From Acinetobacter bereziniae (GTDB lineage Bacteria; Pseudomonadota; Gammaproteobacteria; Pseudomonadales; Moraxellaceae): 32,000 nucleotides of DNA. Positions 30,831 through 30,981 of this stretch are shown here, in pieces. How positions within the stretch are numbered: position 1 is the stretch's first letter; each line of letters starts with the position of its first letter. The notes beneath the pieces were generated by a model. It was given only the letters and a program-made list of their open reading frames with translations, searched no databases and was not told where the DNA came from. The stretch covers positions 30,500 to 62,499 of the forward strand of contig WNDP01000005.1 in NCBI GenBank assembly GCA_009912575.1. The letters are read 5' to 3'. A program made the position numbers and the translations under genes.

Positions 30831-30858
30831 TTTCTGCATAACTTATATTATGTTCATT
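30831..30858 (+). other. dif-like XerC/XerD site R1 (TTTCTGCATAA-CTTATA-TTATGTTCATT)
   Basis: 8/11 and 9/11 arm matches to canonical dif. Closely resembles L1 (shared TGCATAAC..ATATTATGTT). Confidence 0.65.
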
Positions 30859-30864
30859 AGGATA

Positions 30865-30940
30865 CTCAGTAACGTGATGTATAATCGCAGATCATCACGT
30901 TACTGAGCTGTAGCTACAAACAGTGTTGTGTAGGCTACAG
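30865..30940. repeat. right att spacer: two hairpins
   Basis: 16-bp stem CTCAGTAACGTGATGT (30865-80) / ACATCACGTTACTGAG (30892-907). CTGTAGC (30908-14) / GCTACAG (30934-40). TGTAGCTACA at 30909-18 is itself palindromic. Confidence 0.75.
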
Positions 30941-30953
30941 TCTTAGATATCTT

Positions 30954-30981
30954 ATTTAACATAATATACATTATGCGAAAT
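30954..30981 (-). other. dif: canonical chromosome dimer resolution site dif
   Basis: The reverse complement reads ATTTCGCATAA-TGTATA-TTATGTTAAAT. It is identical to E. coli dif at 25 of 28 positions, and all three differences are in the outer XerC arm. Confidence 0.85.

What the first reader, a model, noticed from the sequence alone, without database searches (positions are those of the whole stretch)
30831..30981. Right att module: a perfect dif paired with an inverted dif-like site, able to fold into a CTXphi-type hairpin
Site R2 (30954-30981, minus) is ATTTCGCATAA-TGTATA-TTATGTTAAAT, a canonical dif. Ninety-five bases to its left lies R1 (30831-30858) in inverted orientation. On a single strand the two sites would anneal as follows. 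The XerC arms pair 11/12 with one bulged T, the centres pair 4/6 and the XerD arms pair 9/11. The intervening 95 nt folds by itself into a 16-bp and a 7-bp hairpin. Two inverted dif-like sites about 90 nt apart forming a forked hairpin is the attP(+) architecture described for CTXphi ssDNA integration. The canonical dif also implies that the window spans the replication terminus.
Basis: partly seen in the sequence, partly recalled or inferred. Interest (0 to 1): 0.8.

Follow-up and report, generated by a model that had tools for sequence, protein, structure and literature searches.

The report
Filamentous prophage end joined to dif
The inverted pair of dif-like sites is real and marks the right junction of a 7.1-kb filamentous prophage inserted at the Acinetobacter chromosome-dimer resolution site; over 60 relatives show a CTXphi-like folded single-strand attachment site that recombines on the XerD side instead of the XerC side, a combination I could not find described.

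Summary
R2 (30954-30981, minus) is a perfect 28-bp dif. R1 (30830-30858, plus) is an inverted dif-like site 95 nt away, and the region folds strongly as ssDNA (-37 kcal/mol, z -8.4).

The pair is a post-integration hybrid, not an intact attP. R1, the spacer and the XerD arm are phage DNA. The central region and XerC arm of R2 are host dif. R1's true partner, P2, lies at the left prophage end (23873-23901).

The prophage is a 7,081-nt inovirus (23884-30964) in an Acinetobacter close to A. bereziniae.

Across 19 attR-type junctions, several attL, uninterrupted attP forms and one empty attB, the crossover always lies at the XerD arm/central boundary. It never lies at the XerC boundary that CTXphi uses.

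The hairpin shows strong covariation: 22 of 36 pairs have compensatory changes and 98.7% of cells are paired. The central regions of site 1 and P2 covary between phage lineages. Site 1 matches dif on the XerD side.

Best reading: folded (+)ssDNA integrates by XerD-type bottom-strand exchange, and replication resolves the junction. I rate this a new variant of a known kind (IMEX). The catalytic step is inferred, not shown.

A second module (23732-23872) is a relic of an older phage.

The parts
30830..30858 (+). R1, or 'site 1': the phage-borne inverted dif-like site ATTTCTGCATAA-CTTATA-TTATGTTCATT. It forms the top strand of the attP(+) hairpin.
   Evidence: Read directly. It is conserved at the right end of related phages. 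Its central 3' part, TATA, matches dif TGTATA on the XerD side.
30859..30953 (+). Phage spacer forming a three-way junction. It has a closing stem (AGGATAC/…TATCTT), hairpin 1 (15 bp, 13-nt loop), hairpin 2 (7 bp or more) and a conserved unpaired GTCTTRGA stretch.
   Evidence: Folding. Covariation: 22 of 36 pairs have compensatory changes, 98.7% of cells are paired, and 0 of 500 shuffles reach this.
30954..30964 (-). XerD-binding arm TTATGTTAAAT. It is identical in phage P2 and host dif, and the crossover interval at attR lies here or at its inner edge, which is the XerD cleavage position.
   Evidence: Homology to relatives runs through this arm. Beyond it the sequence is host dif type followed by host flanks that differ between loci.
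30965..30981 (-). Host-derived part of the regenerated dif: central TGTATA plus XerC arm ATTTCGCATAA. Together with 30954-30964 this is R2, i.e. attR and the working chromosomal dif.
   Evidence: All 19 attR-type junctions carry TATACA plus a dif-type XerC arm whose outer bases differ between loci (shown for 18 of the 19), followed by different right-hand flanks (at least 17 distinct). An empty attB, L212, has the same site.
23873..23901 (-). attL, window 'L2'. It is the XerD arm TTATGTTAAAT plus the phage P2 central region CTTCATT and the phage XerC arm AAGTCGCATAA. It is the true hairpin partner of R1 in the free phage.
   Evidence: The plus-strand string ATTTAACATAA-AATGAAG-TTATGCGACTTCAGAATGAC follows the R1 spacer directly in L003, L009, L010 and L071. 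It follows plain host flank in L001, L054 and L069, and in L007 with one change in the central region (AATTAAG).
23884..30964 (+). Integrated inovirus genome of 7,081 nt. Genes: DUF6953 (24204-24473, minus strand), repressor-like (24498-24806, minus strand), Rep_trans initiator (25098-26549), ssb-like (26539-26826), coat B (27066-27344), TspB-like adsorption protein (27388-28614), DUF2523 (28618-28899), Zot (28986-30011), and a conserved 68-aa ORF (30493-30699). No integrase gene is present.
   Evidence: Pfam and PHROG hits. Relatives share 85-94% DNA identity over the rep-to-coat-gene block (about 24863-27462) and the right-end block (30341-30981) in IMG/VR; the morphogenesis genes and the left arm are far more divergent or unmatched. 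Rep is under 35% identical to deposited inovirus initiators, which include CTXphi-genus records.
23589..23872 (+). Relic of the right end of an older, different inovirus. It comprises about 140 nt of 3' phage sequence, site 1 'L1' (23732-23759, ATTTTGCATAA-CGAATA-TTATGTTACTT) and its own two-hairpin spacer (23760-23872). The dif it once preceded was the target for the present phage.
   Evidence: 78-100% matches to the 3' ends of CGAATA-type phages L061, L063, L067, L068, L077 and L092. It has the same fold architecture at -36.2 kcal/mol, z -6.95. The L1 central region CGAATA does not match the adjacent P2 central region, as expected for a junction between two different phages.

Best explanation
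The 30830-30981 module is attR, the right junction of a 7.1-kb filamentous (inovirus) prophage integrated at the chromosomal dif of an Acinetobacter.

In the free phage, the packaged (+) strand carries site 1 (R1), a structured 95-nt spacer, and the bottom strand of a second dif-like site, P2. These fold into one long hairpin whose stem is a duplex XerC/XerD substrate, attP(+).

Integration exchanges the bottom strands of attP(+) and host dif at the XerD arm/central-region boundary, which is the XerD cleavage position. XerC does not complete the reaction. The XerC side of the hairpin shares no homology with dif, and its XerC arm carries two mismatches and a bulge. Replication then converts the single-strand junction into a prophage.

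The result is attL (host flank, XerD arm, phage central region, phage XerC arm) and attR (phage site 1, spacer, XerD arm, host central region, host XerC arm). attR is a fully intact dif on the XerC-arm side of the array, ready for dimer resolution and for the next phage.

Shown by comparison: the phage versus host origin of each segment, the position of the crossover, and selection for the hairpin. Inferred: that ssDNA is the substrate, that XerD is the catalyst, and that replication resolves the junction.
For: 1. Phage origin of R1 and the spacer. They are 85-94% identical to the right ends of Rep-related IMG/VR inoviruses, and homology stops at 30978-30981.

2. Complete att set. attP is uninterrupted in L003, L009, L010 and L071. 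attL with plain host flank is in L001, L007, L054 and L069. attR occurs in 19 sites with at least 17 different flanks. An empty attB, L212, has a left flank matching L069's attL flank (86-95%) and a right flank matching L106's attR flank (92-98%).

3. Crossover position. Every attR keeps the host central region and host XerC arm. Every attL keeps the phage central region (7-8 nt) and phage XerC arm. The exchange therefore lies within the shared 11-nt XerD arm or at its inner edge, never at the XerC boundary. XerD is the recombinase that exchanges bottom strands.

4. Strand logic. The phage genes lie on the window plus strand. That strand carries the bottom strand of both P2 and host dif. Inserting the whole (+) circle at the XerD cut reproduces the observed order exactly (sequence logic).

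5. Hairpin under selection.
- 55 of 63 modules fold with the site 1 XerD arm paired to the P2 XerD arm.
- In a 39-sequence alignment, 22 of 36 pairs show compensatory changes and 98.7% of cells are paired. Shuffles give 10 +/- 1.9 compensatory pairs (0 of 500 reach 22), and slid controls give 3-7.
- The closing stem that brings the two sites together covaries too.
- G-T pairs outnumber A-C mismatches 36 to 4, which points to folding of the plus (packaged) strand.

6. The central regions of site 1 and P2 covary between lineages on the XerC-proximal side: CTT/AAG, CGTA/TACG, CGAA/TTCG, TAT/ATA.

7. The site 1 central region ends in ATA, as in dif TGTATA, in most lineages. An incoming host bottom strand (5'-TAT...) can therefore pair there. 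The XerC-proximal bases (CTT, CGT, CGA) do not match dif TGT.

8. The reconstructed attP(+) of this prophage folds at -39.1 kcal/mol, with an A.A mismatch exactly at the XerD-proximal central position.

9. None of 103 metagenomic dif sites with enough upstream sequence carries site 1, so the module is not a host dif feature.

10. The phage encodes no integrase.
Against: - No experiment: XerD catalysis, the ssDNA substrate and replicative resolution are all inferred.
- A duplex P2 x dif reaction with XerD-only exchange would give identical junctions.
- XerD normally needs FtsK or a factor such as XafT (DUF3653). No DUF3653 protein is encoded here, so the activation route is unknown.
- The first base of the phage strand to be ligated (5'-AAT...) mismatches the host top strand.
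- The spacer hairpins could serve packaging or minus-strand priming instead of recombination.
- Most extra modules were retrieved with a pattern that fixed GCATAA, TTATGTT and TTTAACATAA. Conservation of those cores is therefore by construction and carries no weight.
Confidence: 0.6

Rival explanations
1. Integration uses the double-stranded replicative form. Duplex P2 recombines with dif by a XerD-first reaction, either TLCphi-like or FtsK-dependent at the septum. The hairpin (site 1 plus spacer) serves another ssDNA function such as packaging signal or minus-strand origin.
For: The junctions would be identical. P2 is a good duplex Xer site with a perfect XerD arm. Inovirus intergenic hairpins commonly act as packaging signals (Xanthomonas phages). 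A conserved unpaired GTCTTRGA motif and long hairpin loops look like protein-recognition elements.
Against: It does not explain why an inverted dif-like copy is kept opposite P2 in lineages whose spacers are unrelated in sequence. It does not explain why the central regions of site 1 and P2 covary. It does not explain why site 1 departs from P2 specifically to match dif on the XerD side. There is no XafT/DUF3653. Central regions of 7-8 nt against 6 nt, with little homology, would be a poor duplex partner.
Confidence: 0.27
2. This is a true CTXphi-type element. XerC exchanges the top strand of the folded attP(+) with dif, and R1 x R2 is the attachment hairpin.
For: Two inverted dif-like sites about 95 nt apart. 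A strong ssDNA fold. An RstA-family Rep.
Against: A XerC-side crossover would split site 1 and give host XerC arm | phage central region at one end. None of the 19 attR or the attL junctions has that. Site 1 stays intact, and the central region and XerC arm are always inherited together. Homology to dif lies on the XerD side, not the XerC side. R2 is host dif, not a phage site.
Confidence: 0.03
3. The structure acts at the RNA level, as a 3' stabiliser, terminator or small RNA of the phage's rightward operon, and its overlap with the att sites is incidental.
For: Covariation cannot by itself tell RNA from ssDNA. The structure is on the coding strand, downstream of ORF 30493-30699.
Against: No Rfam family matches at E <= 1 in the module, and no terminator-like site is found. 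The base of the stem is formed by the very sites where recombination occurs. The phage genome is itself single-stranded with this polarity.
Confidence: 0.05
4. The module is a resident chromosomal feature of the Acinetobacter dif region, or a chance inverted repeat, and is unrelated to the prophage.
For: It lies next to a perfect dif.
Against: It travels with the phage in more than 60 contigs with many different flanks. It is absent from 103 of 103 metagenomic dif sites and from the empty attB L212. Fold z-score is -8.4.
Confidence: 0.01

Closest known systems
CTXphi attP(+) of Vibrio cholerae (CTX-type IMEX; Val et al. 2005; summarised in PMC4246890)
   Same: An inovirus with no integrase and an RstA/Rep_trans initiator. 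Two inverted dif-like sites about 90-95 nt apart fold on the (+) ssDNA into a roughly 150-nt hairpin whose stem mimics dif. The central region is only partly paired. A single strand exchange plus replication is the inferred route. The site is masked in the duplex prophage.
   Different: The crossover is at the XerD boundary (bottom strand), not the XerC boundary (top strand). Homology to dif is on the XerD side of the overlap. The regenerated dif is entirely host-type and lies on the XerC-arm side of the element. The spacer is a three-way junction with two covarying hairpins. The host is Acinetobacter. Rep identity is under 35%.
TLCphi (XerD-first, XafT-dependent IMEX; PMC6744903, PMC9226527)
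   Same: The first, and here only, strand exchange is assigned to XerD. Integration is presumably independent of normal dimer resolution.
   Different: TLCphi uses a single duplex attP with a degenerate XerD arm. It encodes XafT (DUF3653), and XerC completes the reaction. Here P2 has a perfect XerD arm, an inverted partner site makes a hairpin, no DUF3653 protein is encoded, and the junctions show no XerC-side exchange.
VGJphi-type IMEXs
   Same: A filamentous phage integrating at dif with host Xer. A new dif forms next to the newest element, giving arrays.
   Different: VGJphi has a single 29-bp duplex attP and a XerC-side crossover. Neither applies here.
Af filamentous phages of Acinetobacter baumannii (PMC11209303, PMC12285184)
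   Same: Acinetobacter inoviruses with Zot, coat B and a TspB-like adsorption protein. One group is flanked by replication and regulatory genes, occurs in tandem, and is suggested to use host XerCD.
   Different: As far as I read it, PMC11209303 maps no att sites, hairpins or crossover points and treats XerCD use as a suggestion; PMC12285184 was seen only as a search-list abstract. I did not test whether this phage belongs to any Af group.

Membership tests
IMEX (integrative mobile element exploiting Xer) | Integrated at the chromosomal dif site, flanked by dif or dif-like sites | tested here: met
   attL is 23873-23901 and attR, a perfect dif, is 30954-30981. The same arrangement is seen in relatives, and an empty attB exists.
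IMEX (integrative mobile element exploiting Xer) | No recombinase of its own | tested here: met
   Pfam and PHROG scans of all plausible ORFs found no integrase, transposase or serine recombinase.
IMEX (integrative mobile element exploiting Xer) | Integration depends on host XerC and XerD | not testable with these tools
   Needs xerC and xerD mutants or purified proteins.
CTXphi-type IMEX | [quoted passage not shown] | tested here: met
   Site 1 and P2 are separated by 95 nt in uninterrupted attP copies.
CTXphi-type IMEX | The sites anneal in the (+) ssDNA to form the functional attP(+) | tested here: inconclusive
   The fold is predicted (-39 kcal/mol) and strongly supported by covariation and G-T asymmetry. 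Use as the recombination substrate is not shown.
CTXphi-type IMEX | XerC-catalysed top-strand exchange, with the crossover at the XerC arm/central boundary | tested here: not met
   All junctions place the crossover at the XerD arm/central boundary.
CTXphi-type IMEX | Overlap-region homology with dif restricted to the XerC side | tested here: not met
   Site 1 central CTTATA versus dif TGTATA: identity is in the 4 nt next to the XerD arm, and the XerC-side bases differ.
TLCphi-type IMEX | Encodes a XafT-like XerD activator (DUF3653) | tested here: not met
   No DUF3653 hit in the small ORFs of unknown function at E <= 5 or in the larger annotated ORFs at E <= 0.01. The original authors used a more sensitive profile-profile search, which I did not run.
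TLCphi-type IMEX | Single duplex attP with a degenerate XerD arm; XerC completes the reaction | tested here: not met
   P2 has a perfect XerD arm and an inverted partner. The central regions are inherited whole, so there is no sign of a XerC exchange.
Chromosomal dif (XerCD dimer-resolution site) | 28-bp site matching the gamma-proteobacterial/Acinetobacter consensus | tested here: met
   Exact match. ADP1 dif differs only in outer XerC-arm bases and one C/T.
Chromosomal dif (XerCD dimer-resolution site) | Located at the replication terminus, where GC skew changes sign | tested here: inconclusive
   Skew is +0.058 over 1-23588 and -0.155 over 30982-32000, but only 1 kb lies to the right. The whole replicon is not available.

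The most novel reading that the evidence does not exclude
A widespread family of inoviruses, found here in an Acinetobacter chromosome and in more than 60 IMG/VR contigs whose hosts were not determined, integrates its folded single-stranded genome into dif by XerD-catalysed bottom-strand exchange without a XafT-type activator. This would be a fourth IMEX strategy combining an ssDNA substrate with the D pathway. Its hairpin is built as the mirror image of CTXphi attP(+), and it regenerates an untouched host dif.
Probability: 0.5. Interest if true: 0.8.

Novelty: new variant of a known kind. Interest (0 to 1): 0.68.

Why it matters
Only three ways of hijacking XerCD are established:
- CTX type: ssDNA substrate, XerC exchange.
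- VGJ type: dsDNA substrate, XerC exchange.
- TLC type: dsDNA substrate, XerD exchange with XafT.

An ssDNA hairpin that recombines at the XerD cleavage position would fill the missing combination.

It would also raise a concrete, testable question. XerD is normally silent without FtsK or XafT, so how is it switched on at a folded single strand?

The system is experimentally tractable. The attP is 170 nt, A. baumannii XerC and XerD have already been cloned and shown to function in E. coli (PMC7399989, abstract seen), and many natural variants show covariation.

It also concerns Acinetobacter, where Xer-dependent pdif modules move resistance genes and where filamentous phages were only recently described.

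In practice, the att map gives exact prophage borders and an insertion chronology for dif-linked arrays in Acinetobacter genomes.

Tried and rejected
- Exact-protein look-ups for the TonB receptor, Zot and the left LysR found nothing on record. The ssb-like protein gave only two short contigs.
- blastn of the whole element against GenBank phages found no match. A protein search found only relatives under 35% identity.
- Orthologous TonB-receptor loci in 17 Acinetobacter genome records (L016-L032) contain no dif within 10 kb. Homology to the window stops at 23596, so they gave no empty site.
- I first considered that L1 or R1 was the crossover site, the CTX model with dif in plus orientation. 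I rejected this because R1 plus the spacer is contiguous with P2 in uninterrupted copies and site 1 is never split.
- I considered full XerC+XerD recombination with heteroduplex segregation. I rejected it because it predicts a 50:50 mix of junction types, whereas 19 of 19 attR junctions are of one type and the central regions differ in length.
- The first metagenome scan, for an exact host-flank-plus-dif string, found nothing. The second, generic dif scan gave the empty site L212.
- The search for a XafT/DUF3653 activator was negative.
- The Rfam and terminator scans were negative.
- One Python run timed out on a file search and was repeated.

Full report
**1. The observation**

R2 at 30954-30981 (minus strand) is exactly ATTTCGCATAA-TGTATA-TTATGTTAAAT. 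It is the only such site in the window even when 3 mismatches are allowed, and none is expected by chance. It fits Acinetobacter dif; ADP1 is GATTCGTATAATGTATATTATGTTAAAT (Carnoy & Roten 2009).

R1 reads ATTTCTGCATAA-CTTATA-TTATGTTCATT on the plus strand at 30830-30858.

As ssDNA the region folds with R1 opposite R2 at -37 kcal/mol. The z-score is -8.4 and 0 of 200 shuffles fold as well. The spacer holds a 15-bp hairpin and a 7-bp hairpin.

**2. Context**

The window comes from an Acinetobacter close to A. bereziniae. Its TonB-dependent receptor is 97% identical to that of CIP 70.12.

Between the receptor (21444-23588, minus strand) and a LysR gene (31278-32000, minus strand) lies a filamentous prophage, with genes on the plus strand:
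- Rep_trans initiator
- ssb-like protein
- coat B
- TspB-like adsorption protein
- DUF2523
- Zot

Two leftward genes form a regulatory module. There is no integrase. No deposited phage matches at the DNA level. Rep is under 35% identical to deposited inovirus initiators, which include CTXphi-genus records.

A second, similar module lies at the left end:
- L1, 23732-23759, plus strand: ATTTTGCATAA-CGAATA-TTATGTTACTT
- a 113-nt spacer
- L2, 23873-23901, minus strand: AAGTCGCATAA-CTTCATT-TTATGTTAAAT

It folds into the same three-way junction at -36.2 kcal/mol, z -6.95.

**3. Which parts are phage and which are host**

Fifteen IMG/VR relatives of Rep share 85-94% identity with window 30341-30981. 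Homology ends at 30978-30981.

In L003, L009, L010 and L071 the R1 spacer is followed by ATTTAACATAA-AATGAAG-TTATGCGACTTCAGAATGAC, not by a dif centre. This is exactly the string at the window's left prophage end. In L001, L054 and L069 that same string is preceded by plain host flank; L007 has it too, with one base changed in the central region.

The phage attachment region is therefore site 1 (R1), spacer, P2. Window L2 is attL. Window R1-spacer-R2 is attR.

A generic dif scan of metagenomes produced an empty attB, L212. Its left flank matches L069's attL flank (86-95%) and its right flank matches L106's attR flank (92-98%). None of 103 metagenomic dif sites with enough upstream sequence has a site 1.

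**4. Position of the crossover**

A pattern scan of IMG/VR returned 63 contigs. Together with the earlier loci and the window they gave 69 distinct modules, and a second scan added five with longer spacers.

Downstream of the XerD arm there are two kinds of sequence:
- TATACA-TTAT[AG]CG..., the host dif type. This occurs at 19 sites, followed by at least 17 different flanks.
- A phage P2 centre of 7-8 nt with a phage XerC arm.

No junction combines a host XerC arm with a phage centre, or the reverse.

The exchange therefore lies within the shared 11-nt XerD arm or at its inner edge. That edge is where XerD cuts the bottom strand; XerC exchanges top strands and XerD bottom strands.

CTXphi and VGJphi cross over at the XerC boundary. 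TLCphi starts with XerD but uses a duplex site, XafT, and XerC to finish.

Full two-strand recombination would give both junction types after replication. I saw one type only, and the centres differ in length.

**5. Strand logic**

The phage genes are on the window plus strand, so the packaged (+) strand is the plus strand. That polarity is established inovirus biology.

On this strand site 1 is a 'top' strand and P2 a 'bottom' strand. Host dif also presents its bottom strand here.

Cutting both bottom strands at ATTTAACATAA^ and swapping them inserts the whole circle. The predicted order is: host-left, XerD arm, P2 centre, P2 XerC arm, genome, site 1, spacer, XerD arm, dif centre, dif XerC arm, host-right. 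This is precisely what is observed.

**6. Is the hairpin real?**

- 55 of 63 modules fold with the site 1 XerD arm paired to the P2 XerD arm. 39 of these have exactly two inner hairpins, although several lineages have unrelated stem sequences.
- On a 39-sequence alignment, RNAalifold finds 36 pairs, 22 with compensatory changes.
- With that structure, 98.7% of cells pair. The 22 covarying pairs compare with 10 +/- 1.9 in shuffles (0 of 500 reach 22) and 3-7 in slid controls. The closing stem between the two sites covaries as well.
- Helix 1 is invariant only because the search pattern fixed it, so it carries no weight.
- G-T pairs (36) far outnumber A-C mismatches (4), which favours folding of the plus strand.
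- More distant relatives with Rep about 54% identical (L011, which has a 123-nt terminal repeat, and L012) have their own inverted pairs.

**7. Features tying the hairpin to recombination**

- The centres of site 1 and P2 covary between lineages on the XerC-proximal side: CTTATA with AATGAAG, CGTATA with AATTACG, CGAATA with ...TTCG, TATTTG with TAGGA(A)TA. Mismatched combinations occur only at junctions between different phages, such as the window's left module.
- The site 1 centre ends in ATA in most lineages, like dif TGTATA, so the incoming host bottom strand (5'-TAT) can pair there. The XerC-proximal bases never match dif TGT.
- In this phage's reconstructed attP(+) (-39.1 kcal/mol), the XerD-proximal central position is an A.A mismatch. 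The XerC arm duplex has two mismatches and a bulged T. The stem continues 5 bp beyond it, TCTGA/TCAGA.
- These features mirror CTXphi, where homology to dif is on the XerC side.

**8. What remains inferred**

No tool here shows XerD catalysis, ssDNA use or replicative resolution.

A duplex P2 x dif reaction with XerD-only exchange would give the same junctions. This is the main rival, and I give it about 0.27.

XerD normally needs FtsK or XafT. No DUF3653 protein is encoded. FtsK at the septum, or an unrecognised factor, would have to activate it. One candidate is the 68-aa ORF 30493-30699, which is present in 9 of the 15 Rep relatives, between zot and the module.

The spacer hairpins may also serve packaging or minus-strand priming. 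No Rfam family or terminator explains them.

**9. The left module**

Window 23589-23760 matches the 3' ends of CGAATA-type phages L061, L063, L067, L068, L077 and L092 at 78-100%.

L1 and its spacer are therefore the relic of an older inovirus whose regenerated dif received the present phage. This fits the rule that the newest IMEX lies next to dif.

The relic abuts the receptor gene. Compared with L016, that gene has lost its promoter and about 13 N-terminal codons.

**10. Terminus claim**

GC skew is +0.058 over 1-23588 and -0.155 over 30982-32000. This is consistent with a terminus, but it rests on 1 kb.

**11. Literature**

Searches found no description of an ssDNA-hairpin attP with a XerD-side crossover. 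The one A. baumannii filamentous-phage paper I read (PMC11209303) only suggests XerCD use. The library is incomplete, so prior description cannot be excluded.

**12. Verdict**

- Observation: confirmed.
- Interpretation: partly right. It is an IMEX att module with CTX-like architecture, but it is a hybrid attR with a XerD-side crossover.
- Novelty: new variant of a known kind.
- Confidence that this is an attR with a regenerated host dif: about 0.95.
- Confidence that the crossover is on the XerD side: about 0.9.
- Confidence in the full ssDNA/XerD mechanism: about 0.6.

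Noticed in passing
window 23589-23872: A second att-like module (L1 plus a two-hairpin spacer). It is the relic of the right end of an older, different inovirus lineage (CGAATA-type central region). Only about 285 bp of that phage survives.
   Followed up: yes
window 21444-23596: The TonB-dependent receptor gene appears 5'-truncated. Homology to A. bereziniae CIP 70.12 stops 8 nt upstream of the ATG at 23588, and a TGA lies immediately upstream. 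In L016 an in-frame extension (MRHAFKVHPLVLS) completes a normal signal peptide. A deletion probably removed the old phage body, the original left flank of dif and the gene's promoter.
   Followed up: partly
window 23660-23720: Two copies of a 24-nt imperfect palindrome (TGGACGTTAAAAAACTAACGTCCA and TGGACGTTAATAAATTAACTTCCA) lie inside the relic, between segments that are adjacent in related phages. This could be an inserted operator-like or binding-site pair. Its function is unknown.
   Followed up: no
window 30493-30699: A 68-aa ORF with no Pfam family is conserved (72-93% aa) in 8 close relatives, plus one weak match in L013, always between zot and the attP module. It is a candidate accessory or recombination factor; this is pure conjecture.
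   Followed up: partly
window 30936-30946 and alignment A1 columns 117-124: A conserved unpaired motif GTCTTRGA sits between hairpin 2 and the closing stem across lineages with otherwise different stems. It looks like a protein-recognition element.
   Followed up: no
window 23884-24860: The left arm of the prophage (ORF 23893-24150, DUF6953, repressor-like gene) is not shared with relatives whose rep-to-coat-gene and right-end segments are 85-94% identical. This suggests a swapped regulatory or immunity module, as with CTXphi rstR variants.
   Followed up: partly
L012 2723-2750; L011 about 106-133: More distant relatives (Rep about 54% identical) carry, besides their inverted pair, a third dif-like string downstream of the ssb-like gene on the plus strand: GTTTCGTATAA-TGTATA-ATATGTTAAAA. 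It could be a promoter look-alike or an extra Xer site.
   Followed up: no
L017 2149-2280 (A. guillouiae CIP 63.46): A decayed copy of the R1 spacer (88.6% identical) lies 7.7 kb from the orthologous TonB receptor. It has lost the XerC arm of site 1 and has no dif beside it. It appears to be a fossil module stranded away from dif.
   Followed up: partly
L013 (3 modules), L089 (4 modules), L052, L070: These contigs hold arrays of several modules, some separated by only about 1 kb. This points to tandem and truncated prophages or satellite-like mini-elements at dif.
   Followed up: no
window 26823-26915: A 30-aa ORF with a CxxC...HxxxxC zinc-finger-like pattern lies between the ssb-like and coat genes. 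Its only Pfam hits are weak (E 0.004-0.05).
   Followed up: no
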